Shown: positions 1,575 through 59,549, numbered from the stretch's first letter. The stretch: 59,549 nucleotides of DNA from a virus (IMGVR_UViG_3300032038_004959); one strand, 5' to 3'. The notes: generated by a model not told the origin, from the sequence alone. A program made the numbers and translations.

Positions 1575-1607
1575 AAGCGATATTGATTTGATATGATTAA
1601 ACTTGGT

Positions 1608-12666: not shown

Positions 12667-13245
12667 TCAAGCAAATAGAAATTTCTCCCAAATATCGATG
12701 AATTGCTTTCCGCAATACTCAGCAAGCTCTCTCGTTTTGAAGGCAAGCCGAGAACCGTTAATCGTACTCGAGTCCGATGACGCATAAACCGCATCCGCAA
12801 AAACGACACCGCCACCCGCATTCGCATTGCTACCCGACCGACCAACGACACGGCACTCTTTCTTCTCATCCTCATCGAGTTCCTCATATTCCTTTTTGGT
12901 GTATATGTAGAACCAAGGATAATAACGGCACTCATCGCCATCGAACTTCGGCTTCCATCCCTCATTCAGAGCCTCTGCGATGATAACGAGGCGAGTATAA
13001 GCGAAAAGATGCAGATTATTGTCAGCCTCTTTGAATGAGCTTTCTATCACCCTGAACTGAGCGACAATAGGATGCTCATCTCCGAGGATTGCGACTGCAT
13101 CCTCAAAGGTCTTGACCTTATCTTTGATGTCCTGAGCAAAGATTTCTTTGCCGAAAAGATGCTCCAAAAGCTCTCTGCCGTTGGCATCTGTATTGTTGTA
13201 AGCTGCAAGTGCATTCCCAGCACTTATCTTCAATTCTTTATCCAT
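12667..13245 (-). CDS. Small DGR target protein (C-terminal variable C-type-lectin/FGE-like region)
   Basis: 192 aa. The C-terminus CRVVGRSGSNANAGGGVVFADAVYASSDSSTINGSRLAF is a third copy of the TR/VR sequence. No signal peptide is seen. Confidence 0.85.
   Translation of the reverse strand: MDKELKISAGNALAAYNNTDANGRELLEHLFGKEIFAQDIKDKVKTFEDAVAILGDEHPIVAQFRVIESSFKEADNNLHLFAYTRLVIIAEALNEGWKPKFDGDECRYYPWFYIYTKKEYEELDEDEKKECRVVGRSGSNANAGGGVVFADAVYASSDSSTINGSRLAFKTRELAEYCGKQFIDIWEKFLFA
12743..12855 (-). repeat. DGR variable repeat 2 (remote VR)
   Basis: A 113-bp hand alignment to TR 30201..30313 gives 13 differences. All are at coding-strand adenines of the TR; none are at other bases. Confidence 0.85.
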
Positions 13246-15110: not shown

Positions 15111-15704
15111 TTATTTATATCTCCATATAAAGGAGTTTGTCTGTTTGAGATAGCCATTTGCAACTCTCGCTATTGATGATGCGTTACTATGCGTCATTTC
15201 TGCTGCCATTTTTACGCTATCATATTCACGGATGAATTGCCTTGATAAATCATATTGCAGAACTTTCTTTGAATTAGGATTGAGAGAGCCTCGTTTCCCA
15301 AACATTCCATTCTTTTCTCCTGTTTGGTTTCGATTGGCGATACCTCTTGCTATACGAGTTCCATAATTCCGATTTTCTTTAATCGTAGCCCATTCGAGAT
15401 TTTCTACTCGATTATCGGTCTTATCTTCGTTGATATGATTGACCTCAGGCTTATTCTCAGGATTAGGAATGAAAGCCAATGCGACTGCACGATGAATAGC
15501 CATTCTCTTAGCTTTTCCGTTTTTACTCAGAAATACAAACATATATCCGCTTTTCTGATACAAGGGCAATAGGATGAAACCTCTTAGATTTTTGGTCGTT
15601 TCGCCATTTCTTCTTACTATTCTATCAATAGAGCGTATCTGCCCTTGATTACTCACCTGATATAATCCCTCGTACTGAGGTATATCTCTCCATTCTTCTT
15701 TCAT
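15111..15704 (-). CDS. HNH homing endonuclease (NUMOD4 + HNH + C-terminal HTH-like module)
   Basis: 197 aa. EEWRDIPQYEGLYQVSNQGQIRS (NUMOD4-like) and VNHINEDKTDNRVENLEW (HNH). Paralogous to 17659..18255. Confidence 0.85.
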   Translation of the reverse strand: MKEEWRDIPQYEGLYQVSNQGQIRSIDRIVRRNGETTKNLRGFILLPLYQKSGYMFVFLSKNGKAKRMAIHRAVALAFIPNPENKPEVNHINEDKTDNRVENLEWATIKENRNYGTRIARGIANRNQTGEKNGMFGKRGSLNPNSKKVLQYDLSRQFIREYDSVKMAAEMTHSNASSIARVANGYLKQTNSFIWRYK

Positions 15705-17658: not shown

Positions 17659-18255
17659 TTAAAGTTTATATTGCCATTTATAATTCCCTGCCGTTTTAGC
17701 CTTACCTCTTGCAACGGCACATATTGAAGTCATACAGATGCCGAGTTTCTCAGATGCTTTTTTGATACAATCCCATTCTTTTATGAATTTTCCATCTTTC
17801 GTGAGTTGTATTATTTTCTTTGCATTGGGATTTAATCCATCCTTATGTTCACGATGCCATTTCCTATCTCTATTTGAATGACCTCTTTCAATGCCTGTCC
17901 CATAATGGAGATTATCATTAAGGCTCATCCATTCGAGATTAGTAGCTCTATTATCTCGCTTATCTTCATTGATATGATTTACGGTACTCAGATTATCAGG
18001 ATTTGGAATGAAAGCCGTAGCAACAATCCGATGAATCAGGTAGTTTTTATTTTTCCCATTTTTACAGAGAGTTACAGAGAGATAGCCATCCTTCCTCTCA
18101 ATAGGGCATAATATCTGACCTTTAATCGTAACAAATCCCTTTTCTCCCCATCGTGTCCGTCTTGGAGTAGTTCTATCAAGAGAGCGGATGTTTCCGAGGT
18201 TGCTGACCTCATATAAATCCTCATATTCAGGTATAGATTTCCATTCTTCACTCAT
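17659..18255 (-). CDS. HNH homing endonuclease (NUMOD4 + HNH), paralog 2
   Basis: 198 aa. EEWKSIPEYEDLYEVSNLGNIRS and VNHINEDKRDNRATNLEW. Confidence 0.85.
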   Translation of the reverse strand: MSEEWKSIPEYEDLYEVSNLGNIRSLDRTTPRRTRWGEKGFVTIKGQILCPIERKDGYLSVTLCKNGKNKNYLIHRIVATAFIPNPDNLSTVNHINEDKRDNRATNLEWMSLNDNLHYGTGIERGHSNRDRKWHREHKDGLNPNAKKIIQLTKDGKFIKEWDCIKKASEKLGICMTSICAVARGKAKTAGNYKWQYKL

Positions 18256-21103: not shown

Positions 21104-22297
21104 TCACTTCTTTTTCTTCGGCTTTTCCTTCTTTCCCTTTGGCTCAGGTCTGAGAACATTCGGGATATTGGCGACCGCTTTCTGCTTATTCTTATCCATC
21201 ACCTTTGCATATATCTGTGTCGTGGAAAGCTCACGATGACCGAGTAGCTTGCTGACGGTGTAGATGTCCGTTCCGAGGTCAAGCATCATTGTGGCGAATG
21301 TATGCCGTCCGCAATGGAATGTGATTTTCTTATCTATCTTTGCCCTCAATACCCATTCCTGAATAGCCTTATTCGTGCATGATGGTGAGTGAATATCCTG
21401 AAAGACCTGCTCATTCGGTTTCCCTCTTTCGCCCATCAGCTCCGCAGCCTGTGGAGTGATGTCGAGATACTCCTGCCCCTGAGTCTTTTTCTGCCTGAAT
21501 ATGATTCGGGTGAAATCCCCTTGATGATGAACCTCTCCCCAAGTGAGTTTCAGAATATCGCTCCGTCTGAGACCTGTCAGACATGAGAATAAGAAAGCAG
21601 CCTTGATGCGAGGATATTCACATTCTGTCTGAGCGAGCTTTCTAACCTCATCGATGGTGAGATACATTCTCGTTCCTTCTTCTGCTTTGAAATTCTCGAC
21701 ATTGCGAGCAGGATTGATGGGGATAATCCTATCCTCGAAAGCCTGATTGAGACACGCCCTGAGCTTATTGAAGTAACTGAGTTTAGAGTTTCGGGCGAGA
21801 GGCTTATCTTTGATACGAGTGCGATAATCATGCGCCCAGGCAACCGCCTCGTTTTCGAGATAATCGTGAAATCCCTGCACCCATTCCTGAGTGATATTGG
21901 CAAATGTCAGTTTCTCATTCTTATCATAGATTAGAAGATGATGCAGACACGAGAACCAATTTCCCCAATTACTACGGCTCTCAGCTCCGAGCCTCTTTTG
22001 GCACATAGCACGATAATAAGGATAGAATAGGGTATCGGTCGCAAATTCTGATTTGAACCCATATTCGCCGTTCTGCATCTCGACAATCCTCTTTGACTTG
22101 ATGGAGTTGGCGAGCTGCATGGTCTGTCGATTCGTTTCCTTATCCTCTTTGGTGCGCTCAGGGATGAGATAGAGCTTCAGGAATTCATAAGTTCTCTTTC
22201 CGTCTCTATATATATCAAGATAGAGACTGATGTTACCGTTCTGCAAAGGCTTCTGTCTGACCTTTATCGGCTCTTTAATTTTCTTTTCTTTCGCCAT
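21104..22297 (-). CDS. int: Tyrosine integrase (Bacteroidetes phage/CTn type)
   Basis: C-terminus has HCGRHTFATMM...LLGHRELSTTQIYAKV (R-H-R-Y catalytic pattern). Start placed at MAKEKKIKEP (22297), with TTCAACGCAT 6 nt upstream. The longer ORF adds an implausible leader. Confidence 0.9.
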   Translation of the reverse strand: MAKEKKIKEPIKVRQKPLQNGNISLYLDIYRDGKRTYEFLKLYLIPERTKEDKETNRQTMQLANSIKSKRIVEMQNGEYGFKSEFATDTLFYPYYRAMCQKRLGAESRSNWGNWFSCLHHLLIYDKNEKLTFANITQEWVQGFHDYLENEAVAWAHDYRTRIKDKPLARNSKLSYFNKLRACLNQAFEDRIIPINPARNVENFKAEEGTRMYLTIDEVRKLAQTECEYPRIKAAFLFSCLTGLRRSDILKLTWGEVHHQGDFTRIIFRQKKTQGQEYLDITPQAAELMGERGKPNEQVFQDIHSPSCTNKAIQEWVLRAKIDKKITFHCGRHTFATMMLDLGTDIYTVSKLLGHRELSTTQIYAKVMDKNKQKAVANIPNVLRPEPKGKKEKPKKKK

Positions 22298-27720: not shown

Positions 27721-28005
27721 TTACTTTTTATAATTGAAATAGAAATTGCCGAAAAGCCTCACTCCTACGAAATAGAGCGAAGCAATGAAAGTGAACCATA
27801 TCACCGCAAACAGATTCTTATTCTCTTTCTTCACGACTTTCATCATATTCACATAAAGATTCATATCTGCATCGAAACGGTCATCACTATCGCCTCCCCT
27901 GTCATAGTCATCATCGTGCATGACACACGGAGTATAGAATTTCTTAGCATAGGGAGGCTTAATATATTTAAGCACTCCCTTTTGGCAACCGCATCCCTTA
28001 CTCAT
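27721..28005 (-). CDS. Small membrane-anchored protein with a C-x-x-HD-x-x-Y motif
   Basis: 94 aa. PCVMHDDDYDRGGDSDDRFD followed by a C-terminal TM helix (FAVIWFTFIASLYFVGVRLF). Confidence 0.4.
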   Translation of the reverse strand: MSKGCGCQKGVLKYIKPPYAKKFYTPCVMHDDDYDRGGDSDDRFDADMNLYVNMMKVVKKENKNLFAVIWFTFIASLYFVGVRLFGNFYFNYKK

Positions 28006-28510
28006 CGCTCACAACGAAAAGAGAGTAATCGATTGAATCTTTCTCCTGCCATCCCTCTTTGAGAGCGTTATTGATGAATGCAAAAGCTCTCATCACGAAA
28101 TCAGCAAGCACCTCAGTCTTGGTGAATGTGTGATAAACAGGATTGCCCTCTGCATCCTCTCCGAGCTTGAATTTCGCAGGGAGATTTGCGCCCTCTGTCT
28201 GAAATGCGAGGTCGTAGGCAGCTTTGAAATTGAACTGATTTTCCGATGAGAGATATACAGGCTTTCCGTTCCATGAGAACCCTGTGAGGATAGTCGCATC
28301 GGTATGAGCATTGATGAGTGCCTCGATGTCTGCTTTGACCTCTGCGATGGTCGGGATATGGTCGTAGTCCTTACGCCAATTATAGCCACTCTCTGCATCC
28401 TCTGAGTCTTTGCCGAAACCTACATAGATGCAAGCCTTTGTCGATGACAATTTCACGATGCCATCCTGACGCTCAGATGCGCCATAAATCTTGAAAAAAT
28501 CTGTATTCAT
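27998..28510 (-). CDS. Hypothetical tail-module protein (DUF4376-like?)
   Basis: 170 aa. FSWNGKPVYLSSENQFNFKAAYD resembles what I recall of DUF4376 tail-fibre-associated domains. Not Avd-like: it is neither a short basic protein nor predicted to be a helical bundle. Confidence 0.4.
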   Translation of the reverse strand: MNTDFFKIYGASERQDGIVKLSSTKACIYVGFGKDSEDAESGYNWRKDYDHIPTIAEVKADIEALINAHTDATILTGFSWNGKPVYLSSENQFNFKAAYDLAFQTEGANLPAKFKLGEDAEGNPVYHTFTKTEVLADFVMRAFAFINNALKEGWQEKDSIDYSLFVVSDE

Positions 28511-28511
28511 A

Positions 28512-29990
28512 TTACCTGATTTTTAATTGGGTGAATAATCTGTTTATTTCATCATCTGACGGCATCTGAAATCCGAGAGCGACCGCCGAGCAGAAAGTAT
28601 ATTTCGGATATTGACCTTGGAAATCGACCTCCATAGAGCAGAAGAAAGGGAATCCGTCAGGCTCTTGCTTTCGCCTGTCAAGCTCATCCCAATTTTCTTT
28701 GTCGCCTGTCCAAAGTTTCCTGAGCTGACCCTGATAGATGATACTCACGACATATTTATCTCGTGGTTTCTTCACGAGTGATGTATCACCACCTCTCGCA
28801 AGAGTATCATCAACCTCTCGCTTATATCTTTCCTGCTCGACCAAAGGCACGACACCTTTCTCGTAATCAACCACGATAAAAGGCTTGTGGTCTAACTCAC
28901 GACCGCTTATCTTCGAGCCTCTGAAACTCTTTTTGCCGTTGAAGGTCTGAGGACTGCTCAGAGCCTTTCCAAAATCTTTCATTCTTTTCTTCTTTTTCTT
29001 TAATTTGTTATACTCGCTTGGATATAGAATCGTCTCCATAAGATGCCAACCATTGCAATGCTTTGTCATGCCCCACAGAGAACCGATAAGCTCAATCCTG
29101 CGCTTTCTTGACTTAACTTTTCTCAGCTTCTGAGCGAAGTTCTGCTTCACTCTCTTTCTGAGTAGTGAATGAGTCGGGAAAATCACATATCCGAGGAAAT
29201 CCAATCCATCAGACAAAGGAAATACCCTCTCATTATATTTTATCTCCTGACCGATGACTTCAATCTGCTCATGGACGATTCCTCTGCTCTCCCATAGATA
29301 GAGCTTCGAGCCGCTCGCAATCACTCCGTCATCGCAATACCGATAGAAATGCCTTACTCCGTATCGGTCTTTGAGATAGTGGTCGAGGAATACCGATAAT
29401 AGAAGATTTCCGAGACCCTGAGATGAACGCATCCCCATTGAGATTCCCTCATCGAGAAATCTCACGAAACTCTCCAATATCGAAATCAATCTCTCATCCT
29501 TGAAAACCTTTCTCACACAATACATGATGAAATCCTGCTTCACCGTATCATAGAATTTACGGACATCGAATTTATAGATGTATCTCATCCCCTCAGGGTC
29601 GATACGAATATCTCTTTCGATATAGGCTTTCAGGTCGTGCATTCCTCTTTTCTTGATAGATGCAGAGGTAGTCCTGATAAATCGCCTCAGATGCTTATCG
29701 ACAATCTGCATGACTGCACCGACCTTGATTCGGGTTTTCATGTCGAATACTTGAAGATGCCGCTCTTTCCCTGCCTCTACAATATCCTTAGGATGCCACT
29801 TTCCGAGATTGACCTTTCCTGACGCAATTTCTTCTGCTACACCATCAAGGAACGCTTCCCGATGGGCGAGTAACCATCTGCCTTCACTCAGACTCTTTCT
29901 CAGAGTGCCTCTCAGAACCGTATCAAACGCTTCTTCGAGATTGGGACGCTCGATGATTTCCTCAATCACATAGCCATCTCTTTTCGCCAT
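28512..29990 (-). CDS. DGR reverse transcriptase with a roughly 165-aa C-terminal extension
   Basis: 492 aa. YCDD catalytic box (aa 218-221) and MGMRSSQ (GxxxSQ-type DGR motif). It lies 210 bp downstream of the TR on the same strand. The RT core ends near aa 325, followed by KKKKKR and unassigned sequence. Confidence 0.9.
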   Translation of the reverse strand: MAKRDGYVIEEIIERPNLEEAFDTVLRGTLRKSLSEGRWLLAHREAFLDGVAEEIASGKVNLGKWHPKDIVEAGKERHLQVFDMKTRIKVGAVMQIVDKHLRRFIRTTSASIKKRGMHDLKAYIERDIRIDPEGMRYIYKFDVRKFYDTVKQDFIMYCVRKVFKDERLISILESFVRFLDEGISMGMRSSQGLGNLLLSVFLDHYLKDRYGVRHFYRYCDDGVIASGSKLYLWESRGIVHEQIEVIGQEIKYNERVFPLSDGLDFLGYVIFPTHSLLRKRVKQNFAQKLRKVKSRKRRIELIGSLWGMTKHCNGWHLMETILYPSEYNKLKKKKKRMKDFGKALSSPQTFNGKKSFRGSKISGRELDHKPFIVVDYEKGVVPLVEQERYKREVDDTLARGGDTSLVKKPRDKYVVSIIYQGQLRKLWTGDKENWDELDRRKQEPDGFPFFCSMEVDFQGQYPKYTFCSAVALGFQMPSDDEINRLFTQLKIR

Positions 29991-30435
29991 TTCAATGAAA
30001 CTCCTTCAGTTCCTCAGGTCTGAGGTGTTCGAGAATGAACCTACCAACCTCTACCTGCATTCGTGATTTTTCAGTTTTCCGATTTATTATCGCTTTTACT
30101 GAGGCTCAGGTCTCTCGCCCTCAGCTATTCTCTATCTCGTAGGGATATGTCGTAGAGACGATTATTCGGGGAGTTTCGCCCCTATATTTCTTTTCTGTTT
30201 GCAAGCCGAGAACCGTTATTCGTATTCGAGTTCGATGACGCATTATTCGCATTCGCATAAACGACACCGCCATTCGCATTCGCATTGTTATTCGACCGAC
30301 CAACGACACGGCAAATGAGACCCTCTACCTTTCGCCTTTCGGCATCGCTCACGCAGGAGAGCGAGCGGTCTTTTCAGACCGCAACGCCCTGCGCTTTTTC
30401 GCTTTATTATTTTTCTGTTTCATATTCCTTACCTT
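29991..30435 (-). ncRNA. Presumed DGR template RNA region (TR plus structured spacers)
   Basis: No credible ORF here. The TR is flanked by hairpins at 30365..30382 (GCGGTC/GACCGC), 30168..30182 (GGGG/CCCC), 30099..30124 (CTGAGG/CCTCAG) and 30012..30025. Confidence 0.5.
30201..30313 (-). repeat. DGR template repeat (TR)
   Basis: Intergenic copy. In the VR frame it reads CRVVGRSNNNANANGGVVYANANNASSNSNTNNGSRLA, rich in AAY codons. It has 27 coding-strand adenines, and both VRs differ from it almost only at these positions. Confidence 0.85.
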
Positions 30436-33400
30436 TTATTCAGAGATTGATATTTCGCCACGGAAGGCAAGCCGAGAACCGCCATTCGAAAACGAGCGCG
30501 ATGACGCACTACCCGCACCCGCACAAACGACACCGCCATTCGCATACACATCGCTATCCGACCGACCAACGACACGGCAGCGAGAGGATGTGTAATATTG
30601 TCCGTCTGCATAATGAGTAGCGAATCTTGAATTATCATTCACAAACTTCGATGCTACAATATCACAGAATCGACCATGCTTGGTACGAGCGACACAATAT
30701 CCTGAGTTAGTGGTGAGAGCCTGAACAACTCGCTCTGTCTCATTGATTGGGTCGTAGATATGATATTTCGCATCGATAGGATAAGTACCGATGCCGTCCA
30801 ACATCTTATCCTTGAATGCCTGAACGAATGACGGAACATTCACGGCTACCATATCCATCCATTCATAGGTGCAAGCGAAGAAAGACTCAAAGCCCATACA
30901 CTTATTGCCCTGTCCGCTCGTAGAACCGAGATTGGTTGAAGTAGTATTTCCGAGGCTATCGAGATAACCTGTCGTGCCTCCTGCACTCTTGCCATAGCCG
31001 CAATACTTTGAAGAATCACGAGTTCCTGACAGAGAGAAGAAAAGGATTGCGAGCAGCTTACTCATCTCATAGTCGATGAGCTGATAGCCTGCACCTCTAC
31101 GGCGAGCGAGATTTTGGAAATCCTTAGCCGTATAGTTCATCGAGCCTGTCGGAGTGTTGATAGGATTGCCATCCGCATCATATTGCCATTCAATAGATGT
31201 GGTTGATGTTCCTGTGCCGACACGAACCGAAACGCCCGAAACAGAACGGAGTCTTATCAGAGAATCGATGCTTCCCTGATAGATAGCTCCGAGGCACTCA
31301 TCACTCTCTACCCAATCAGGCTCAATCGCCTCAATCTCTGTGCTATCTACGGCGATAGCCTCGATGTCTGAGGAAATGCCGCTTGGCGAAGTGAATACAA
31401 AGGTCTTTGCCTCCGATGGTACGTTGATGAAGATATAATCTCCATTCACGAAATCAAAGAGATTATTTGCGACCGCCATATTATACTTCGAGATGATGAC
31501 ACCGCTCTCATTGAGGAAACAAGCACCGATTGCCTCATTATTCAGTCCTGGGTATCTCACTTGCTTCATGCCCTCGACATCAATCTGATAGGTATTGTGA
31601 TTCGCAGTCTCAGAGACAACTCCTGAGCTTTCGAGAGTGCTGACATTCTCTGTGATATTCGATACCATGATAGCTGCATTCTCTCTCATCAGGATTTGTG
31701 AGAGCTTCTTTCGATTGATACGGCTTGCGCTCGAAATAGGCTCAGAGGATAGAGAACTCCAAGCGATATACTTCTTCTGATTCTTGAAGTCATTGATACC
31801 CTTATACCACAGATGAGGAATGCGCATCATAGCATCATTGCCTGAGCCGAGATTATCGGAATAGTCGAAGTCTGAACCATCCTTGAGCTTCTTATAGTCG
31901 CTCTCGCTCATCTTCACTCCTTCCCATCTGCCCGAAGTCGGATTGAGCTTTCCTGTGACAGGAATCATCAATGAGCGAATCTTCGAGATGTGACCGCTTG
32001 GCTCGTAGCTATCTCCTGTGGTGTTGTTATCCTTATTGGTGATATTCTGAGGGTCTGTCAGAGTATCATCCATCTCTATCAAAGTATATTGCGACTGATG
32101 AATAGTCAGGTCTGCGAACTCACTCTGCCATGCAGAAAGAACCGCATTATCAGTATATTTGGAGAGCATATAAGTACCAACAATGGCAGGAGCAGTCTGA
32201 GCCGTCAGATTCGCATCAAGACCGCTCAGATGGAGCGCAGAGATGGTCGTGAGGTCTGAGCCATCGTCACTTACATTGTAAGGCGTAGCACGAACCACTC
32301 TCAGATTATTGCCACTCGTTCCTGCAAGCTCTCTGAGTAAATCGACAGAGCTGATTTTCGCACAATTCTCAATGATGAGAGTCGTGATACTTCTCTTGTC
32401 TGCGAGAATCAATCCTGAGCGTTGCAGATTAGGCAGATAGCGCAGTCTGAGATAGGTATATGTCGATGGCAGCTGCATATAGGTGAGCTTCGCACCATCG
32501 GCAATATCGGCTCTCGCAAGCTGAGAATTCGCAGCATAGAGCGATTCCAATCGAGGACATCCGCTACATACCACATTCGTGATGAGAGTGCCTCGAATAT
32601 CGAGTTTCTTCAAGAACGGCAATTCTCCGAGATTGACATTGGTGAGCAGGGTGTAAGCTCCGATAGTGAGATTCACCTTGCCGACCTTTCCGAGATAGAT
32701 TTCCTCAGCGAGAGTCATCACAGAGAAATCAAAGTTATTCGACAGGGTGATTTCCGAGAGGTCAATCATCGACATTCTGTCTGCCTGATAGATATAGAGC
32801 AAAGCTCCTTCCTCGTGCGAGAAATTCGTGAAGTTATGGCTCTGTCCTGCTTCGAGATATACACTCTCCGAGATTGAGCCTGAGCTATCGTTACCGATGC
32901 CGAAATAACCTGTCTTAGCAGCCGTGATACGAATCTTTGCGCCGCTTGGAGCATTGACACGACCTGAGAGAACGCCACTAAAGAAATTACCTGTTCCATA
33001 GAAGCCATCACGAATGCGCCATCTTCTTTCGATGAATGCAGGGAGAGAGGTTAATCCCAATCCTTGCAGGGCATAGAAATAGATATTATTGGCAGTCGTA
33101 GATGTGAAATCGATATACTTACGCTCTCCGTCATAGCTCGATACTTTCTTCTGCCAACGCTGGATGCGAGCGGTCAGGAAGAAATAAGTCGCTCCCTCAG
33201 GAGAGAATGGCTGCAAGGTCTGTCCGTCAATGGTAGCCGTGCAGCTTCGCATAGCAGAAGCAACAGTCCTCAGAGATAGCTCTGTATTCTGAGCATCGAT
33301 ATAGACGGTCTGCTGCAAATAGATATTGCGGAACAAAACCGAGTTATATCCTGCATACGGATTAGTATATCCTGTCTGAGCATCAGGCATCTTGTTAGGG

Positions 33401-36400
33401 TCAACCTCAGCATCGACCGTCTGACCGCCATCATTATCCTTGCCATTGCAAGTATCGCAGTCATAGACTTTGTTCAGATACATTCGCATTGCGAGCGTTC
33501 CTGTGGTCGAATCGCTTTCCTCATTGGCATCATTATAATAGACACCATTCACGACCTTACAACCATCCTCCAAGAACCACATCGGCTGCATATTCTTGGC
33601 TCTTTGGTCAACGGCAGCGCAATAGTCGGTGAATACATCGTAAGAGAGGCATGAGTGAGGCGATGCGTACTTATAGAGGTCTGTTTTCCAGAGATTGAGA
33701 CCTGTCTGCTCATGCTTATCATAATCGCATGAATCGCAGAACTTCATCCAACGATAGAGATTGTAAGGCACTTTCTTTCCGAGCGCATAGGCGATAGCGA
33801 GATTATCATCATCAACCAAGCACTCGAAATAATAAGTCCATGCAGGAACGGTCTGAACCGAAATATCGCCTCCATCGATGAGAGCCTGCACCCACTTAGA
33901 GAATGAGGTGCTTGGAGCCATCATGTCAGCCACCGAAGAAACTCCCTTGAACCAATCCATGCCCTGATAATTCAGCAGCTCAAATCCATCGGTCGGATTG
34001 ACAACAGAGCCTGTGACCGTCCATCTGCCGTTTGCATTCTGAACCATCGAGCCTGTCTGCTCAATCCATGATGTGCCGTTATGCTTCATCACCTTATAAG
34101 ATGAACCGCAATACATCGAGAGGACATAAGTTGCAGAGGTATCAAGACCGCTTGTAGCAAGGAAACGGCTCTTTGTCTGAGCGAGAGTCTCGCCATCCGT
34201 TCCGAAGAACTCGATGAAGTCTCCGTAATTGAGGCATCCCTTGTTATAGCCAGGCACATCATTGAAACCGAGTGCGACCTGCTCTTTCTTATCCTCTTTC
34301 CAATTTCCCTTTGAATGGAAATACGGACTGCTGCCTGTGTCGCTCTTTGAGCGATACATTGCCACAGGGATATTGGCGGTTGAGTGATTCATCACGAGAC
34401 CATCAACCACGAGCGAGCCTTTCGTCCAAGTACCATCGAAAGCTCTTTGAGCAGGAGTCATATAATTACGACCCAATGCCCTGAATGTTGCATTCATCAT
34501 GTCGCAGATGCCGCAGTCATTCGCATTCGAGCTATCTGAATAATCGACCTTGACCGTGATAATATCCACAGGGATGGAATTATCGTGAATCTGCACCTTA
34601 TTGATAGCAGCGAGAGCGATTGCCCTGCGTCCTGCTTCGGTTGTCTCGTCAGGATTGAGCAGAGTGATGGTAGTGCCGCCTGTCTTGGTAGCCTTATCAT
34701 AGGTCGAACCTTTCTTCTGAGCGAGATAGTAGCGAGGATTCTTCACAGGTCTCTGAGCCGATGTCGTTCCCTGATTCCTGCGAGCCACATCACGAGCCAC
34801 AAAGTTAGTCCAAGGTCTTGCAGGGTCGATATAGTAGAGGGTGACATATATTTGGTCTTTCGTTGATACGGTCGTATCGAGAGCCTCGATGTCTGAGCCG
34901 TTGAAAGGACATTCGATGATATACGCCATCCCTCTATCTGAGAGCTGCGAAGCCTGAGGACGGAGCTTTGTTGTGGTGATTCCGAGTTCGGTCACTTGCT
35001 GAGATGCCATGACATTCTCGAAATTGAACTCCTGCACCATATCCTCTGTATTGGTGAGCTTCACGAGGTAGTTTTGGAATGCTTGGTCGAATTGGAAGTA
35101 ATCTTCCCATGCCAACAGATAATAGAGATAGAAATCACCCTGAGAGCCATTGAATGAGATTGGCTTTTCCTGAATGAGGTTACTCTGACCTGCGACATAT
35201 CCGATAACTGCTACTTCCTCACCATTGAGATAGAGCTTGATGAAATAGTAGGTCACACCGCCACGAGTCTGACCGAGACCCTCGATTGCAGGCTCAACCA
35301 CAATGGCAACTGAGACTTTCTCTCCCTGCTTATAGGCTCTTTCCTCTGCATGATTTGAAAGACCTGTCGCACAATAGATGCCGACCGCCCTTCCTGTCAC
35401 ATAGAAGCCAGCTCCTACGCCCTCATTGAAGCACTCCATCAGGATTGCATCATCATCAACGAGATTCTTTGCAGCGAAAGCGAACTGAATACCCAAACCA
35501 TTACTCTCGATAGATGTAGGCTTGAATGGTTGATGATTGAGCGTTGCAGTCACATCTTCTGCGATTCTCAGAGCTTTCTCACCCAAGAATGATACAAAGC
35601 CTGTTGAACTCCAATTCGAGCCGTTCACGGCGATTTCAAAGCCATTATCGATGATAGAATGGTCTGTTTCCTCATTACTTCTGTTCGAGAATTCAAAGCC
35701 ATAGATTGCGCCTGATTTCAGAGCTGCCTCGATGACCGTTCCGCTAACAAGGAAAGTCGCCTCTACGCCATAGGTGCTTCCGCATTGAACCTTGACGATA
35801 TGAGAGAATGTGCCATCGGATGCCACTCCTGAAACCTGATGTGAATAGGTATAGGCAGCAGAGCGGTATGCGGTATGGCTCTGAATGGCAGTTCCATTCA
35901 GATAGACAGTCGCAGTCGGAGCATTGCTTGTCGGGTCATAGACCGCATAATTGACGGTGATAGTCTCGTAGAGCTTCACGACAGGAGAGATGCCATCACT
36001 CATCCAACTCTCGACCACGAGCGGAGTATTTCTCGTATCATCGATACAGAAAATGCCCGAATAGAGATAGTTGCCGACCACTCCTGAAGCTACATCGACA
36101 CCATGAACACGAATAGGATATGAGCCATGAGCGAGCGTATATCCGAGGCAGTTGTTCGGGTCGATTGAGATACCATGAGAATAGGTATCTTGAACAATCG
36201 TATTGCCCAATTCACGCCATGCACCATCGATATAGATTTCCACGATAGCATTGATGCCCTTATCGCTCGCATTGTTGGCGAACTTGAACAGAGGAATACT
36301 CTTTGCAGTTCCTCCGACAGAGAGAGCCGTGCTTGATGTGTATTGCAGGGTCTGAACGCTGCTCACGGTCACATCTACGGCAGTCACACTGATATTGCGA

Positions 36401-38298
36401 GAGCCTGTGTTTCCTGCATCATCGGTGATGAGACACTTGAAACGGCGCACTCCTGCATTGGCGAAATACTTAGTGACATCCATCACGAAATCATAGGTAC
36501 TCATAGATGGAGATGAAGCCTTATTGAAGTTGAATACCTCCAAAGTGGTATTCGTATCTCTATCGATGAGAGCGATTGTCGCAATCATATTCTCCTGCTC
36601 AGTCTGTCCTACGGTAGTAACCGAGCGGACAGCAGCACGGAGAATGAATGAGCTTCCTGCATTGCCATAGAGAGGCGAGGTCTCAAAAGCCATAGCAACG
36701 ATAGTGCCGCCACCGCCGCCACCGCCGCCTGAGCCGACTGCAAACTGAATCTCATCGCCGATTCCCTCATGCTCTGCGTTTTCGAGCTGCAACTTCACGA
36801 TACCCTCTGTCTCAGTATCGAGCTTGATTCCTGTCGGGAGATGGGTATATGCGCCACCTGTGGAGAAAGCATCATCTCCATCTTCCTCAGGCTCATCTGA
36901 GGTCTCCACCTGAGAACCACCTCCTCCGAAATCCTGCCACAAAGAAGGCTCTCCGAAATCAGATACCACTCCTTTGAACTGCTTGCATTCCCATGTGTTT
37001 TCTGCAATCTGATAGGTGATGACGAGACCGCTCTTTGCATAATCAATCCCTGTGTCGGTAGATAGCTTACGGATTGCAGCAATGGCATATTCGAGAGTAT
37101 AGAAAGCAGCAGATGTGCAAGCTCCACAAAGAGCATCGACATTGATGAGTGTCTCAGCTCCTGCGCTCATTCCTGCAAGGTCGAGCCAATTATTGATATT
37201 CTTGAAGGTCGCCTCCTGAGAATCCTCACCGATATACTGATAAGTCTTCCATGAGCCACGAGCGATAGCGAAAGTTATCTGCATACCGATTGAGGTAAAT
37301 CCTTTCGAGAATGTCACATTGATAGCATTCTGCAAGGTATAGTAACCGCTCTGCAAAGGAACTTCATTCGTGACATTGTAGCAGTTGCCGACTGCTGCCG
37401 TTCCTCCGAATTTCGTCCAAGTGGTAGTGTCGGTGAAATTAACCTTTGCGCTGCCATGCCATTGCCAACTCTCCATCTTTCCATTCGTTCCGAGGAAAGT
37501 GATGACAACACCCTGAGCTTTGTAATATCGGGATTCGTCATTATCATAGAGCAATCCCAAAGCCGTACCAAGCGACATCGGGGTACTCGTGCTGAACATC
37601 TTATTGACATTGATGAACAGAGCAGCAACGATTTCTTCCTGCAACTCTGCTTTTGCATCATCGATGGATTGTCTGATTGCTGCGAGTTCCTCAGGGTCAT
37701 TGCCTACGACTTCGAGAGCTTCATCATCTTCATTCCACGAATAGATAAGACCATCATAGGTATAGAGCTTATCAGCGATAGGATAGGTACGAGTACCATC
37801 CATATATTCATCTGCACCATCCCAATTAGAATAGTACTTGAAGCTGCCTCCTGAATCTACTCGCAGAGCGAACTTGCCACTATTTTTCACATAAACCACC
37901 ACGCCCGATGCAGTCGTTGACTGATTGAGGATAGTAGCAAGTTCAACGATGCCATAGAATCTCTTAGTAGATGTATTCTTGGCAATAGAAAGAGCATCGG
38001 TCGCCTTATCGTCTGCATCTCCTGCGGTTTCCTCTGCCGAAGCAGCAGCCTCTTGCGCTTGCGAGGCAGCTTGTGAGGCACTATTCGCAGTCTGAGTAGC
38101 CGAAGCAGCAGCCTGTTGAGCAGCATTTGCGGTCTGTTTCGCCTGAGCTGCATCCTGAGCCGCTTGGTCATACCCTGCCAAGATAGAACCGAGAGGCACT
38201 TTGACACTCTCATTCTGAGAGTTCACACCGATAGTATATAATCCTTGTGTGGATTGACTTTCGGGCAACTCTGAAATTCTTTTCTTTTGGTCTGCCAT
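30436..38298 (-). CDS. Giant tail fibre / receptor-binding protein, primary DGR target
   Basis: 2620 aa. Fibre-like N-terminus with an Ala/Gln-rich coiled coil, a Gly8 linker (36706..36729), leucine-rich repeats (about 32250..32800) and a C-terminal lectin/FGE-like end carrying VR1. Confidence 0.85.
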   Translation of the reverse strand: MADQKKRISELPESQSTQGLYTIGVNSQNESVKVPLGSILAGYDQAAQDAAQAKQTANAAQQAAASATQTANSASQAASQAQEAAASAEETAGDADDKATDALSIAKNTSTKRFYGIVELATILNQSTTASGVVVYVKNSGKFALRVDSGGSFKYYSNWDGADEYMDGTRTYPIADKLYTYDGLIYSWNEDDEALEVVGNDPEELAAIRQSIDDAKAELQEEIVAALFINVNKMFSTSTPMSLGTALGLLYDNDESRYYKAQGVVITFLGTNGKMESWQWHGSAKVNFTDTTTWTKFGGTAAVGNCYNVTNEVPLQSGYYTLQNAINVTFSKGFTSIGMQITFAIARGSWKTYQYIGEDSQEATFKNINNWLDLAGMSAGAETLINVDALCGACTSAAFYTLEYAIAAIRKLSTDTGIDYAKSGLVITYQIAENTWECKQFKGVVSDFGEPSLWQDFGGGGSQVETSDEPEEDGDDAFSTGGAYTHLPTGIKLDTETEGIVKLQLENAEHEGIGDEIQFAVGSGGGGGGGGTIVAMAFETSPLYGNAGSSFILRAAVRSVTTVGQTEQENMIATIALIDRDTNTTLEVFNFNKASSPSMSTYDFVMDVTKYFANAGVRRFKCLITDDAGNTGSRNISVTAVDVTVSSVQTLQYTSSTALSVGGTAKSIPLFKFANNASDKGINAIVEIYIDGAWRELGNTIVQDTYSHGISIDPNNCLGYTLAHGSYPIRVHGVDVASGVVGNYLYSGIFCIDDTRNTPLVVESWMSDGISPVVKLYETITVNYAVYDPTSNAPTATVYLNGTAIQSHTAYRSAAYTYSHQVSGVASDGTFSHIVKVQCGSTYGVEATFLVSGTVIEAALKSGAIYGFEFSNRSNEETDHSIIDNGFEIAVNGSNWSSTGFVSFLGEKALRIAEDVTATLNHQPFKPTSIESNGLGIQFAFAAKNLVDDDAILMECFNEGVGAGFYVTGRAVGIYCATGLSNHAEERAYKQGEKVSVAIVVEPAIEGLGQTRGGVTYYFIKLYLNGEEVAVIGYVAGQSNLIQEKPISFNGSQGDFYLYYLLAWEDYFQFDQAFQNYLVKLTNTEDMVQEFNFENVMASQQVTELGITTTKLRPQASQLSDRGMAYIIECPFNGSDIEALDTTVSTKDQIYVTLYYIDPARPWTNFVARDVARRNQGTTSAQRPVKNPRYYLAQKKGSTYDKATKTGGTTITLLNPDETTEAGRRAIALAAINKVQIHDNSIPVDIITVKVDYSDSSNANDCGICDMMNATFRALGRNYMTPAQRAFDGTWTKGSLVVDGLVMNHSTANIPVAMYRSKSDTGSSPYFHSKGNWKEDKKEQVALGFNDVPGYNKGCLNYGDFIEFFGTDGETLAQTKSRFLATSGLDTSATYVLSMYCGSSYKVMKHNGTSWIEQTGSMVQNANGRWTVTGSVVNPTDGFELLNYQGMDWFKGVSSVADMMAPSTSFSKWVQALIDGGDISVQTVPAWTYYFECLVDDDNLAIAYALGKKVPYNLYRWMKFCDSCDYDKHEQTGLNLWKTDLYKYASPHSCLSYDVFTDYCAAVDQRAKNMQPMWFLEDGCKVVNGVYYNDANEESDSTTGTLAMRMYLNKVYDCDTCNGKDNDGGQTVDAEVDPNKMPDAQTGYTNPYAGYNSVLFRNIYLQQTVYIDAQNTELSLRTVASAMRSCTATIDGQTLQPFSPEGATYFFLTARIQRWQKKVSSYDGERKYIDFTSTTANNIYFYALQGLGLTSLPAFIERRWRIRDGFYGTGNFFSGVLSGRVNAPSGAKIRITAAKTGYFGIGNDSSGSISESVYLEAGQSHNFTNFSHEEGALLYIYQADRMSMIDLSEITLSNNFDFSVMTLAEEIYLGKVGKVNLTIGAYTLLTNVNLGELPFLKKLDIRGTLITNVVCSGCPRLESLYAANSQLARADIADGAKLTYMQLPSTYTYLRLRYLPNLQRSGLILADKRSITTLIIENCAKISSVDLLRELAGTSGNNLRVVRATPYNVSDDGSDLTTISALHLSGLDANLTAQTAPAIVGTYMLSKYTDNAVLSAWQSEFADLTIHQSQYTLIEMDDTLTDPQNITNKDNNTTGDSYEPSGHISKIRSLMIPVTGKLNPTSGRWEGVKMSESDYKKLKDGSDFDYSDNLGSGNDAMMRIPHLWYKGINDFKNQKKYIAWSSLSSEPISSASRINRKKLSQILMRENAAIMVSNITENVSTLESSGVVSETANHNTYQIDVEGMKQVRYPGLNNEAIGACFLNESGVIISKYNMAVANNLFDFVNGDYIFINVPSEAKTFVFTSPSGISSDIEAIAVDSTEIEAIEPDWVESDECLGAIYQGSIDSLIRLRSVSGVSVRVGTGTSTTSIEWQYDADGNPINTPTGSMNYTAKDFQNLARRRGAGYQLIDYEMSKLLAILFFSLSGTRDSSKYCGYGKSAGGTTGYLDSLGNTTSTNLGSTSGQGNKCMGFESFFACTYEWMDMVAVNVPSFVQAFKDKMLDGIGTYPIDAKYHIYDPINETERVVQALTTNSGYCVARTKHGRFCDIVASKFVNDNSRFATHYADGQYYTSSRCRVVGRSDSDVYANGGVVCAGAGSASSRSFSNGGSRLAFRGEISISE
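30467..30579 (-). repeat. DGR variable repeat 1
   Basis: A 113-bp alignment to the TR gives 18 differences. Seventeen are at TR coding-strand adenines and one is not (TR 30282 g versus 30548 a). Confidence 0.85.
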
Positions 38299-38304
38299 AT
38301 TGCT

Positions 38305-39330
38305 TTAATTTTGATTATTGATATAAATTTTATCGCTATCGCTTTCTGTGATGATGTATTTTCCATCCTCTGTGACGAGTAAGGAAATGCCGTATTTCGG
38401 ACGAACCTTGATACGAGCAGGATTCTCTGCATCTTCTGTGATGACCCAATCGAAATCTTCTGTCGCAAGCAGCATCCATGAGCTTTCAGGACGATATGCA
38501 GTGAATGTCAGAATCACAGAGAACTCACACCAAATCTTCCCATCTCTCAATATCTCGAATTTAGAGACGCTCATGCTCTTATAATAGCAGTCATATTCAG
38601 CAGGTAGATTTGCGAAATAGAGGATGCGAGATTCTGACTGCATGAGGATGGCAAAGAGAGAATTGTATCGTCTCCAAAACTCGGTTATATTCGCTGCATC
38701 GATGAGTAGTTTCAGAGTGACATCTTTTGCCTTGAAATGCACTTCCTCATCATCATAATCGATTCCTGAGATAGATTTCACGCTTATCTTCAAAGCATCA
38801 CGGATATTCGCCGCTTTCCTGATACTATCATCTGAGCCTCTGAGAATGTATGAGCCGAACTGAGAGAAATCGATTCCGTCAAGCTCATATCCCGATTGTC
38901 GGACTTCGCTCTTACCAAGCTGATACGGATTTCCTGATGGCACAACAGGGAAATCATCAGCAAAGGTAAGAGTGAGTTTTCCGAGCTTTATAAACGATGA
39001 GAATGAGCCATTCGACACCATCCTCAGTCGATAGGTCTTTCCGAGTTCTGTGAATTGGAAATTATGATATGCGCCTGTGGCAAGGTCATCGAAGAAATCC
39101 TCAGCATATCGCACATTCGTGATGCAGAACTGAATCTGAAATTGTCGGGTATCGAGAACAGGAGAAAGCAAATCAACCTCGACACCATCGAATTCCTCCC
39201 ATTCGGTCGTATCGAGTGTTTTGAAAGATGGCATCTGAACGACTCCCTTATAGCCGCCCTTCTCAACAAAGATGCCATATTCGAGCATAGCATCCCGACC
39301 ATCGACAAATAGTTTTCCTGTCTCTCTCAT
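38305..39330 (-). CDS. Distal tail protein (Dit)-like
   Basis: 341-aa ORF in the position after the tape measure where siphoviruses encode Dit. No strong motif. Confidence 0.45.
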   Translation of the reverse strand: MRETGKLFVDGRDAMLEYGIFVEKGGYKGVVQMPSFKTLDTTEWEEFDGVEVDLLSPVLDTRQFQIQFCITNVRYAEDFFDDLATGAYHNFQFTELGKTYRLRMVSNGSFSSFIKLGKLTLTFADDFPVVPSGNPYQLGKSEVRQSGYELDGIDFSQFGSYILRGSDDSIRKAANIRDALKISVKSISGIDYDDEEVHFKAKDVTLKLLIDAANITEFWRRYNSLFAILMQSESRILYFANLPAEYDCYYKSMSVSKFEILRDGKIWCEFSVILTFTAYRPESSWMLLATEDFDWVITEDAENPARIKVRPKYGISLLVTEDGKYIITESDSDKIYINNQN

Positions 39331-59523: not shown

Positions 59524-59549
59524 GTCTGCAAATCGATTAGTTTATAGAA
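59423..59549. repeat. Terminal direct repeat identical to 1..127
   Basis: Read directly; see feature 1..127. Confidence 0.9.

What the first reader, a model, noticed from the sequence alone, without database searches (positions are those of the whole stretch)
28512..30579. Diversity-generating retroelement in the tail module: RT, 113-bp TR and an adenine-mutated VR at the end of a 2620-aa fibre gene
A 113-bp unit occurs at 30201..30313 (intergenic), at 30467..30579 (last codons of ORF 30436..38298) and at 12743..12855. The coding strand is minus.
- In the shared frame the intergenic copy reads CRVVGRSNNNANANGGVVYANANNASSNSNTNNGSRLA. It is dominated by AAY codons, as DGR templates are.
- It lies 210 bp upstream of an RT ORF with a YCDD box and a GxxxSQ-type motif.
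- By hand alignment VR1 differs from the TR at 18 positions. Seventeen fall on the TR's 27 coding-strand adenines, and one does not (30282 g versus 30548 a).
- The adenine-free ends are invariant in all three copies: TGCCGTGTCGTTGGTCGGTCG at the 5' end and GGTTCTCGGCTTGC at the 3' end. The 3' block is an IMH-like candidate.
- Immediately 3' of that block both VRs read CTTC where the TR reads AAAC.

The variable segment maps to a C-terminal G-S-R-L-A-F ending typical of lectin/FGE-fold DGR targets.
Basis: partly seen in the sequence, partly recalled or inferred. Interest (0 to 1): 0.8.

Follow-up and report, generated by a model that had tools for sequence, protein, structure and literature searches.

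The report
Hankyphage-type DGR with two targets
This is a genuine diversity-generating retroelement in a roughly 59-kb temperate gut phage (probably of Prevotella) that rewrites the tips of a giant tail-fibre protein and of a small second protein; it is a clear example, but it belongs to a type already described in Bacteroides phages.

Summary
The 113-nt template repeat (TR, 30201-30313, minus strand) has two variable copies. VR1 (30467-30579) differs at 18 positions, 17 of them TR adenines. VR2 (12743-12855) differs at 13 positions, all adenines.

The RT (28512-29990) is intact, with D143, GMRSSQ and YCDD. Between TR and RT lies a full-length Rfam RT-3 RNA.

The whole cassette is homologous to the experimentally active Hankyphage DGR. 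This covers the giant fibre with its GSRLAFRG end, TR, RT-3, an RT with a C-terminal extension, and an acidic 170-aa ORF. There is no Avd. That fits the Avd-less Lineage 3 and the 'CH1' accessory class of Wu et al.

VR2 is not in the tail module. It ends a 192-aa protein in the recombination/replication module, homologous to the distal small DGR target of LoVEphage and BT-TP2.

In related genomes, 225 of 232 TR/VR mismatches fall on adenines. Non-adenine TR polymorphisms are copied into both VRs. 116 near-identical copies of the small target vary almost only at adenine-templated codons. The element has therefore been active recently.

Not confirmed here: the lectin fold, any IMH function, and a hairpin 3' of the VRs.

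Verdict: new member of a known kind, of modest interest.

The parts
30201..30313 (-). Template repeat (TR), 113 nt and non-coding. It has 27 adenines, 26 of them in codon positions 1-2 of the VR frame (12 AAY codons plus TAT, ACG and TCA).
   Evidence: It is identical or near-identical in related genomes while the VRs differ.
30467..30579 (-). VR1: the variable repeat encoding residues about 2573-2610 of the 2620-aa fibre protein. 18 mismatches to the TR, 17 at adenines.
   Evidence: Nine homologous VR1 copies in relatives are all different, at adenine sites.
30436..38298 (-). Target gene 1: a 2620-aa tail-fibre-like protein directly downstream of the tape measure and tail genes. Its C-terminus is homologous to the Hankyphage DGR target and ends in GSRLAFRG.
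30467..30480 (-). Adenine-free, G+C-rich 14-nt 3' block of VR1 (GGTTCTCGGCTTGC) followed by CTTC. Candidate IMH. The same block lies at 12743-12756 in VR2 and at 30201-30214 in the TR, where AAAC follows (candidate IMH*).
   Evidence: The same VR-versus-TR divergence point is seen in relatives and in Hankyphage. Function is inferred, not tested.
30015..30163 (-). RT-3 RNA (Rfam RF03068), a structured RNA filling most of the TR-RT spacer. Presumed counterpart of the Bordetella DGR spacer RNA.
   Evidence: 89.1 bits against a gathering score of 40.5, full length 1-148. It occupies the same position in Hankyphage and six relatives. Conserved blocks and variable-length hairpins appear in 55 distinct spacers.
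28512..29990 (-). DGR reverse transcriptase, 492 aa. Holds the RVT_1 domain (75-268) with D143, GMRSSQ and YCDD, a thumb, and a basic C-terminal extension (about residues 335-492, pI 9.5).
27998..28510 (-). Acidic 170-aa ORF (pI 4.67) immediately after the RT. It is 45% identical to the ORF that follows the Hankyphage RT, and it fits the 'CH1' accessory class of Avd-less DGRs. It is not an Avd homologue.
   Evidence: description of CH1 in PMC5758913
12743..12855 (-). VR2: the variable repeat encoding residues 131-167 of the 192-aa protein. 13 mismatches to the TR, all at adenines.
   Evidence: Population entropy is concentrated at adenine-templated codons.
12667..13245 (-). Target gene 2: a 192-aa acidic protein (phrog_11581, no Pfam family). 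It lies between the RecT/SbcC-like/hydrolase genes and the DnaD/DnaC-like loader genes.

Best explanation
The locus is an intact and recently active diversity-generating retroelement of the Hankyphage type. That type is Avd-less, corresponding to Lineage 3 and the CH1 architecture of Wu et al. It is carried by a 59.4-kb temperate tailed phage, probably of Prevotella.

Proposed mechanism. Steps 1, 2 and 4 are inferred from the Bordetella BPP-1 and Hankyphage systems. The outcome in step 3 is shown here.
1. The TR and the adjacent RT-3 RNA are transcribed as one non-coding RNA.
2. The RT, together with its basic C-terminal domain and possibly the acidic downstream ORF, binds the RT-3 element. 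It then copies the TR into cDNA, misincorporating opposite template adenines.
3. The cDNA replaces the homologous 113-nt segment in two genes in trans. One is the 3' end of the 2620-aa tail-fibre gene, 154 nt upstream of the TR. The other is the 3' part of a 192-aa gene about 15.7 kb downstream of the RT. Only codons templated by TR adenines change: 12 AAY codons plus TAT and ACG. That allows up to about 2e15 peptides per target without ever creating a stop codon.
4. Directionality would come from the 3' junction. An identical 14-nt adenine-free block is followed by CTTC in both VRs and by AAAC in the TR.

The fibre target most likely diversifies receptor binding. The role of the small target is unknown. 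Its genomic position suggests an early, non-structural binder.
For: - **Adenine bias.** 17 of 18 mismatches in VR1 and 13 of 13 in VR2 fall on adenines.
- **TR design.** 26 of the 27 TR adenines sit in codon positions 1-2.
- **RT.** It is an intact RVT_1 enzyme with D143, GMRSSQ and YCDD. These motifs are conserved across 40 homologues.
- **Spacer RNA.** A full-length RT-3 RNA lies between TR and RT, here and in Hankyphage and six relatives.
- **Homology to Hankyphage p00.** The RT is 47% identical over 94% of its length, the downstream ORF is 45% identical, and the fibre C-terminus is 27% identical with the same GSRLAFRG end. DGR activity of Hankyphage was measured in culture (PMC12135933).
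- **Recent activity.** Across 12 related genomes, 225 of 232 TR/VR mismatches are at adenines. The TR is constant while every VR differs.
- **TR alleles copied into VRs.** The non-adenine alleles GTCGTTTAT, GTCGTGTAT and GTCGCTTAT each appear in the VR copies recovered from the same genome or sample.
- **Small target in public data.** It has 4703 homologue clusters. Among 116 same-length copies at 90-94% identity, mean entropy is 1.03 bits inside the VR and 0.07 outside, with peaks exactly at adenine-templated codons.
- **Same family elsewhere.** Homologous small targets with their own cognate VRs occur in LoVEphage (17 of 17 mismatches at adenines) and BT-TP2 (10 of 10).
- **Context.** The genome encodes terminase, portal, capsid, tape measure, a tail protein, endolysin and integrase.
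Against: - There is no direct evidence of activity in this particular genome, which is a single consensus sequence.
- VR1 carries one non-adenine change.
- No Avd homologue exists anywhere in the genome, so the BPP-1 mechanism cannot be transferred unchanged.
- No stable hairpin follows either VR.
- The lectin fold of the targets could not be confirmed.
- No Bacteroidetes-type promoter box was seen just upstream of the TR in this clade, although Hankyphage-like loci have one.
- Assigning the 170-aa ORF to 'CH1' rests on size, pI, position and lineage as described in the literature, not on a sequence comparison with CH1 members.
Confidence: 0.95

Rival explanations
1. The element is a fossil DGR. 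The repeats record past mutagenic homing, but the element in this genome no longer works.
For: Only one consensus genome is available. VR1 has one non-adenine mismatch. No Avd was found. No promoter box was seen before the TR.
Against: The RT ORF is full length with all catalytic motifs, and RT-3 is intact. Genomes whose RT is 92-94% identical all carry different VRs around a constant TR, and TR point alleles have been copied into both VRs. Avd-less DGRs of this lineage are active in culture.
Confidence: 0.05
2. The repeats are ordinary paralogous segments kept similar by gene conversion and diversified by positive selection. No reverse transcription is involved.
For: Recombinant-looking junctions between repeat copies exist in metagenome contigs (L085/L101, L102), and one TR appears to have been converted by VR2 (L103). 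Homologous exchange between copies may therefore happen.
Against: Selection or conversion cannot confine 225 of 232 differences to positions that are adenine in a non-coding copy. The non-coding copy sits next to a DGR-clade RT and a DGR-associated RNA. Outside the 41 VR columns the two targets are not detectably homologous.
Confidence: 0.01
3. VR2 is a bystander. A VR-like segment is written by the DGR, but the 192-aa ORF has no function that benefits from variation.
For: No function, family or fold could be assigned. The gene lies far from the cassette.
Against: The scaffold outside the VR is almost invariant across 116 variants. The family has 1949 clusters at 50% identity. Homologues keep a cognate VR in phages whose TR sequence is entirely different (LoVEphage, BT-TP2). 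That implies long-term co-evolution of this target with DGRs.
Confidence: 0.04

Closest known systems
Hankyphage (Bacteroides phage p00, BK010646) DGR; Benler et al. 2018 (PMC6199706); activity shown in PMC12135933
   Same: The cassette order is the same: giant fibre gene with a C-terminal VR, then TR, about 210 nt containing RT-3 RNA, then the RT, then an acidic ORF of 160-170 aa. The RT is 47% identical, including the C-terminal extension. The downstream ORF is 45% identical. The fibre C-terminus is 27% identical with the same ...GSRLAFRG end. The repeat length is similar, 113 versus 116-117 nt.
   Different: Only one VR is annotated in p00. The phage backbone is different: a Mu-like transposable 43-kb phage there, against a 59.4-kb genome here with a tyrosine integrase and RecT/DnaD-type replication genes, and no megablast match for 24 kb of the genome spanning the DGR and tail module (20000-44000) in the phage collection. 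The likely host is Prevotella rather than Bacteroides or Phocaeicola. The window RT has an insertion of about 50 aa in the C-terminal domain.
Quimbyvirus ('Quimbyviridae', Benler et al. 2021, PMC8008677) and LoVEphage (MW660583) two-target DGRs
   Same: One target sits beside the tail genes and the RT. A second, small target lies far away among DNA-metabolism or defence-type genes. The LoVEphage distal target (QVQ57199, 194 aa) is a full-length homologue of the 192-aa protein (35% identity) and carries its own VR, with 17 of 17 mismatches at adenines.
   Different: The RT is only about 31% identical and matches in three pieces in LoVEphage. There is no RT-3 hit. The TR/VR sequence is unrelated. 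The structural target is a 'tail collar fibre' of about 440 aa, not a giant fibre. That LoVEphage equals Quimbyvirus was not verified.
Bacteroides phage BT-TP2 (PQ571279)
   Same: It has a Hankyphage-type RT and a DUF4376-annotated downstream ORF, and two VRs. One is in the giant target. The other is in a homologue of the small target, 59% identical over the matched residues 89-191. Mismatches are 11 of 11 and 10 of 10 at adenines.
   Different: The genome is 45 kb. The small target is split across the ends of the linear record and is not annotated. The TR sequence is different.
Avd-less DGR Lineage 3 / architecture E with the CH1 accessory gene (Wu et al. 2018, PMC5758913)
   Same: There is no avd. 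An acidic accessory ORF of 160-170 aa (pI 4.7) lies next to the RT. The RT has a C-terminal extension of up to about 150 aa. Hosts are Bacteroidales. A non-adjacent second target lies within the same prophage.
   Different: Membership was inferred from described properties. No CH1 or Lineage 3 reference sequence was compared here.
Bordetella phage BPP-1 DGR (prototype)
   Same: TR-to-VR adenine mutagenesis of the C-terminus of a tail fibre, AAY-rich TR design, a structured RNA between TR and RT, and a 3' G+C-rich junction that differs between VR and TR.
   Different: BPP-1 needs Avd, uses a different spacer RNA (Rfam RT-10), has a single target, and has a hairpin 3' of the VR. Here there is no Avd, the spacer RNA is RT-3, there are two targets, and no hairpin was found.

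Membership tests
Diversity-generating retroelement (DGR) | Reverse transcriptase with an intact catalytic core and the DGR-type motif [LIV]GxxxSQ | tested here: met
   RVT_1 at E = 1.2e-8. D143 in KFDVRKFYD, GMRSSQ at 186-191 and YCDD at 218-221. All are nearly invariant in 40 homologues.
Diversity-generating retroelement (DGR) | TR/VR repeat pair whose differences are confined to TR adenines | tested here: met
   17 of 18 mismatches in VR1 and 13 of 13 in VR2. Pooled over relatives, 225 of 232.
Diversity-generating retroelement (DGR) | Non-coding TR next to the RT, with adenines placed in codon positions 1-2 (AAY) of the target frame | tested here: met
   The TR lies 210 nt upstream of the RT. 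26 of 27 adenines are in positions 1-2, and there are 12 AAY codons.
Diversity-generating retroelement (DGR) | VR in frame at the 3' end of a protein-coding target | tested here: met
   VR1 ends 10 codons before the stop of the 2620-aa ORF. VR2 encodes residues 131-167 of the 192-aa ORF.
Diversity-generating retroelement (DGR) | VR embedded in a C-type lectin (or Ig) fold | tested here: inconclusive
   There is no Pfam, NCBIfam or PDB-sequence hit for either target. AlphaFold on the small target failed (pLDDT 42). The fibre C-terminus is homologous to the Hankyphage target, which its authors report as lectin-containing. The motif GFESFFACTYEWMD recalls the FGE-type GxxDMxGNVWEW motif, but that is from memory and is a lead only.
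Diversity-generating retroelement (DGR) | Accessory variability determinant (Avd) | tested here: not met
   There is no Avd-family hit in the neighbours or in 46 small ORFs across the genome. The ORF labelled 'Avd' in Hankyphage records is acidic (pI 5.0; window homologue 4.67) and DUF4376-like. Avd is absent from 26% of catalogued DGRs and from Lineage 3, so this does not exclude DGR membership.
Diversity-generating retroelement (DGR) | IMH / IMH* asymmetry at the 3' end of VR versus TR | tested here: met
   This is met at the sequence level only. An identical 14-nt adenine-free block is followed by CTTC in both VRs and by AAAC in the TR. The same break point occurs in relatives and in Hankyphage. 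Function is not testable with these tools.
Diversity-generating retroelement (DGR) | Hairpin or cruciform 3' of the VR (BPP-1-type target recognition) | tested here: not met
   DNA folds of the 86 nt spanning each VR 3' end are no more stable than shuffles (z = +0.50 and -0.54). This feature is not universal among DGRs.
Diversity-generating retroelement (DGR) | Evidence that VRs diversify while the TR stays constant | tested here: met
Hankyphage-type DGR cassette (Avd-less Lineage 3 / CH1 architecture) | RT of this clade, including the C-terminal extension | tested here: met
   47% identity over residues 3-466 to the p00 RT. The C-terminal domain is present in all 120 listed homologues.
Hankyphage-type DGR cassette (Avd-less Lineage 3 / CH1 architecture) | RT-3 RNA in the TR-RT spacer | tested here: met
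   Window: 89.1 bits, full length. Hankyphage: 146.6 bits, at the same position.
Hankyphage-type DGR cassette (Avd-less Lineage 3 / CH1 architecture) | Acidic ORF of about 165 aa directly after the RT (CH1-like) | tested here: met
   170 aa, pI 4.67, 45% identical to the p00 ORF. Equating it with CH1 is inferred from the published description.
Hankyphage (the phage itself) | Mu-like transposable phage of about 43 kb with near-identical DNA | tested here: not met
   There is no megablast match for 24 kb around the DGR. The genome is 59.4 kb with a tyrosine integrase. Only the DGR cassette is Hankyphage-like.
Quimbyvirus/LoVEphage-type two-target DGR | Second target is a small protein encoded away from the structural module and homologous to the LoVEphage distal target | tested here: met
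   35% identity over 98% of the length. It lies among recombination and replication genes.
Quimbyvirus/LoVEphage-type two-target DGR | RT encoded in three overlapping frames | tested here: not met
   The RT is a single 492-aa ORF.

The most novel reading that the evidence does not exclude
In this DGR lineage, mutagenic homing does not use Avd. The RT's own basic C-terminal domain would take over Avd's role. That domain is confidently folded, is alpha/beta rather than Avd's all-helical four-helix bundle, and has no match among solved structures. It would act together with the RT-3 RNA and the acidic CH1-like protein. The same machine also writes a stand-alone, non-virion binder of about 190 aa, from a family of about 1,900 clusters at 50% identity. 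That binder would act inside the cell during early infection, for example against host defences.
Probability: 0.3. Interest if true: 0.6.

Novelty: new member of a known kind. Interest (0 to 1): 0.3.

Why it matters
As a DGR call this adds little. Gut Bacteroidales phages are the richest known reservoir of DGRs, and this cassette type has been described and shown to be active.

It is useful as a very clean natural example. It is a complete circular genome with one TR writing two unrelated scaffolds. Many near-identical relatives are public, in which TR alleles can be seen propagating into both VRs.

It also brings together three loosely connected facts:
- the Rfam RT-3 RNA is the TR-adjacent spacer RNA of the Hankyphage-type, Avd-less DGR lineage;
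- the ORF annotated 'Avd' in Hankyphage genomes is not Avd-like;
- the small distal target known from Quimbyvirus-like phages is a large, unannotated family that also serves Hankyphage-type DGRs.

The open questions are how Avd-less homing works and what a hypervariable non-structural phage protein binds. Both are directly testable in this lineage.

Tried and rejected
- **Lectin fold by sequence.** Pfam, NCBIfam and PHROGs searches on both targets gave only function-unknown PHROGs and nothing from Pfam or NCBIfam.
- **PDB sequence and profile searches** with the fibre C-terminus, the small-target family (55 sequences) and the fibre C-terminal family (11 sequences) gave no meaningful hit.
- **AlphaFold on the small target.** The only alignment allowed was 18 sequences, all at least 89% identical. 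The model was unusable (pLDDT 42).
- **Foldseek of the RT C-terminal domain against the PDB.** The best E-value was 0.27 and TM-scores were below 0.35. There were only weak similarities to OB-fold ssDNA binders. The domain is not all-helical like Avd.
- **Genome-wide Avd search.** Nothing was found. That tool lists only 25 of the 32 families hit, so a very weak hit could have been hidden.
- **Hairpins 3' of the VRs.** The folds were not significant.
- **MFE fold of the TR-RT spacer alone.** It was not significant (z = -0.79). The structure became evident only through comparison with relatives and Rfam.
- **Near-identical phage in GenBank phages.** None was found.
- **hhalign of the two target families.** They are homologous only across the 41 VR columns. 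I therefore rejected the idea that the small target is a duplicated fibre tip.
- **The 24-aa basic ORF (30349-30423) between the fibre stop and the TR** was considered as a mini-accessory protein. It is not conserved in Hankyphage, so I did not pursue it.

Full report
**1. The observation**

- The window is a circular assembly. Bases 1-127 equal 59423-59549, giving a 59,422-bp unit.
- The 113-nt unit occurs exactly three times, all on the minus strand: 30201-30313, 30467-30579 and 12743-12855.
- The intergenic copy (the TR) has 27 adenines. In the VR frame it reads CRVVGRSNNNANANGGVVYANANNASSNSNTNNGSRL.
- VR1 differs from the TR at 18 positions. Seventeen are TR adenines, and the other is a C>T at TR index 31 (Fisher p = 2e-12).
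- VR2 differs at 13 positions, all adenines (p = 5e-10).
- The 21-nt 5' block and the 14-nt 3' block are identical in all three copies. They are followed by CTTC in both VRs and AAAC in the TR.
- Twenty-six of the 27 adenines occupy codon positions 1-2. There are 12 AAY codons plus TAT and ACG, and one silent TCA. Mutagenesis can therefore never create a stop codon, and it can encode about 15^12 x 4 x 4, or roughly 2e15, peptides.

**2. The enzyme and its neighbours**

- ORF 28512-29990 (492 aa) matches Pfam RVT_1 and phrog_1423.
- It carries the motif A aspartate (D143), GMRSSQ (the DGR-type GxxxSQ) and YCDD. All of these are nearly invariant in 40 homologues.
- Its best annotated relatives are the RTs of Hankyphage p00 and related Bacteroides prophages, at 45-49% identity over residues 3-466.
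- The Hankyphage record has the same layout: a 2245-aa target with a C-terminal VR, then the TR, about 209 nt, the RT, and a 161-aa ORF.
- The window's 170-aa ORF after the RT (27998-28510) is 45% identical to that 161-aa ORF.
- The last 299 residues of the 2620-aa protein align with the end of the Hankyphage target, at 27% identity and with the same ...GSRLAFRG ending. The full protein aligns over 64% of its length, and over 86% with BS-TP4 and BKO1-TP3.

**3. The spacer RNA**

- The 210-nt TR-RT gap contains a full-length match to Rfam RF03068, the RT-3 RNA, at 30015-30163 on the minus strand. It scores 89.1 bits against a gathering score of 40.5.
- The same family sits between TR and RT in Hankyphage (146.6 bits) and in six other relatives. 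It is absent from LoVEphage.
- Across 55 distinct spacers from IMG/VR relatives, the conserved blocks are interrupted by variable-length hairpins.
- Weinberg et al. 2017 defined the motifs RT-1 to RT-19. They showed that RT-10 occupies the BPP-1 TR-RT spacer, and they speculated that other RT motifs serve other DGRs. This locus fits that idea for RT-3.
- A single-sequence fold of the spacer was not significant.

**4. Accessory proteins**

- No Avd homologue was found in the cassette or among 46 small ORFs of the genome.
- The 170-aa ORF is acidic (pI 4.67). It matches phrog_19239 and, weakly, DUF4376.
- Its Hankyphage homologue is labelled 'Avd' in PV107405 and 'DUF4376' in BT-TP2.
- Wu et al. 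2018 report four relevant points:
  - Lineage 3, whose sublineage 3A is restricted to Bacteroides and relatives, lacks avd.
  - An acidic accessory gene, CH1 (160-169 aa, pI 4.7 +/- 0.2), occurs only in DGRs without avd.
  - About 20% of DGR RTs carry a C-terminal extension of up to 150 aa with no recognisable motif.
  - Phage DGRs often have a second, non-adjacent target within the prophage.
- All four descriptions fit this locus. The CH1 assignment is by description only.
- The RT extension (residues 335-492, pI 9.5) gave a confident AlphaFold model (pLDDT 86.7). It is an alpha/beta domain, not an all-helical bundle like Avd, and it has no significant PDB match (best E = 0.27).

**5. Genome context and host**

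- Reading along the minus strand, the genome encodes terminase, portal, major head protein, a 1447-aa tape measure (39817-44160) and a tail protein (38305-39330).
- Next come the 2620-aa target, the TR, the RT, the 170-aa ORF and a 1019-aa protein.
- After these come endolysin, a tyrosine integrase (21104-22297), and a recombination/replication module.
- That module holds an SbcC-like gene, RecT, a metal-dependent hydrolase, the 192-aa target, a DnaD-like loader and a DnaC-like loader.
- So the RT, the TR and VR1 are in the tail module, and VR2 is not.
- There is no near-identical phage in GenBank phages.
- Relatives whose RT is 92-94% identical occur in IMG/VR and in a 373-kb contig of an uncultured Prevotella MAG. 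This points to a temperate Prevotella phage.

**6. Evidence for recent activity**

- Scans for the 21-nt 5' block recovered TR, VR1 and VR2 copies from about a dozen related genomes.
- The TR is constant, while every VR is different. 225 of 232 mismatches fall on TR adenines (p about 1e-153).
- Three TR alleles at non-adenine positions (GTCGTTTAT, GTCGTGTAT and GTCGCTTAT) are each mirrored in the VR1 and VR2 copies recovered from the same genome or sample. This is the signature of repeated TR-to-VR transfer after the lineages split.
- The 192-aa protein has 4703 homologue clusters at 90% identity. Among 116 same-length members at 90-94% identity, mean entropy is 1.03 bits inside the VR and 0.07 outside, with peaks of about 3 bits exactly at adenine-templated codons.

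**7. The small target**

- It has no Pfam or NCBIfam family and no PDB relative.
- It belongs to phrog_11581 and to a large family: 1949 clusters at 50% identity at E <= 1e-3.
- The family has conserved motifs, ERVKTFEDAC.ELG, AALNEGW.P.F and ELAEYCGKQFIDIWADF.
- Full-length homologues occur in LoVEphage (35% identity) and BT-TP2 (59% identity over the matched residues 89-191). Each carries a VR cognate to that phage's own, unrelated TR, with 17 of 17 and 10 of 10 mismatches at adenines.
- Benler et al. 2021 described exactly this layout for Quimbyvirus: a structural target plus a distal non-structural target among defence and DNA-modification genes.
- Two-target DGRs are also reported for Bacuni phages and for the 'tentaclin' phages.
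- Profile-profile comparison shows that the fibre tip and the small target share only the 41 VR columns.

**8. What was not confirmed**

- The lectin or FGE fold was not confirmed.
- Any function of the 3' block as an IMH was not tested.
- A target-site hairpin was not found.
- No promoter for the TR was identified in this clade.

**9. Verdict**

This is a real, intact and recently active DGR. It combines a Hankyphage-type, Avd-less cassette with a Quimbyvirus-type distal small target, in a phage backbone that is not in GenBank phages. Each component and each architectural feature has been described before, so I classify it as a new member of a known kind, of modest interest.

Noticed in passing
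window 1-127 and 59423-59549: The two ends are an exact 127-bp repeat. The window is a circularly closed assembly of a 59,422-bp genome (127 nt is a common assembler k-mer overlap).
   Followed up: partly
window 98-2267 (minus strand): There is a cluster of 7-deazaguanine / queuosine-precursor biosynthesis genes. GTP cyclohydrolase I is at 98-682, and QueC, PTPS (QueD) and radical-SAM hits fall among the neighbouring small ORFs. This suggests the phage modifies its DNA. Only the first ORF was mapped explicitly.
   Followed up: no
window 15111-15704 and 17659-18255: Two paralogous ORFs of about 197 aa (DNA repeats at 71-72% identity) flank the SbcC-like gene. The Pfam summary shows two NUMOD4/HNH_3 members, probably these ORFs, which would make them homing-endonuclease-like genes.
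   Followed up: no
L103 2808 (- strand) and L104 (contig Ga0326511_10000151): In one relative the TR itself has lost six adenines in its 5' third. There it matches VR2 of the same contig, while VR1 now shows three non-adenine mismatches. This looks like VR-to-TR conversion or self-homing eroding the template.
   Followed up: partly
L102; L085 and L101: Some contigs join the VR2 5' flank to the TR and its 3' flank. Others join the VR1 5' flank to the VR2 3' flank. These are either recombinants between repeat copies or assembly chimeras across the repeats.
   Followed up: no
window 30548 (VR1) and L109 (VR2 of UMHR01005178): The same rare non-adenine change (GCG to GTG at TR index 31, flanked by AAT codons) occurs independently in two different VRs of two genomes. 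This may be a minor misincorporation hot spot.
   Followed up: no
window 30314-30335 (minus strand), and the equivalent site in L001-L080: A conserved leader, GGTRGAG...CCATAG-like, lies immediately 5' of the TR in all relatives. Hankyphage-like loci have a Bacteroidetes -7 box (TAnnTTTG) about 20 nt upstream of it. The window clade instead has two small hairpins and no such box.
   Followed up: partly
window 28515-28988 (RT residues 335-492): The RT has a basic C-terminal domain that gives a confident AlphaFold model (pLDDT 86.7), is alpha/beta, and has no significant match among solved structures. It is conserved but divergent (21-31% identity) across the Hankyphage-like RTs.
   Followed up: yes
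L112 3799-4284 (PV107405) versus window 27998-28510: The ORF annotated 'Avd' in recent Hankyphage records is acidic (pI about 5) and DUF4376-like, unlike Avd proteins (basic, pI about 9.5 according to Wu et al.). The label is probably wrong, and CH1-like is a better description.
   Followed up: yes
L187/L188 (BT-TP2, PQ571279 ends): This cultured B. thetaiotaomicron phage has an unannotated second DGR target, a homologue of the 192-aa protein. The gene is split across the ends of the linear record.
   Followed up: partly
window 30349-30423 (minus strand): A 24-codon, very basic ORF (MKQKNNKAKKRRALRSEKTARSPA) lies between the fibre stop codon and the TR. It is not conserved in Hankyphage, which has an unrelated 64-aa ORF there.
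   Followed up: partly
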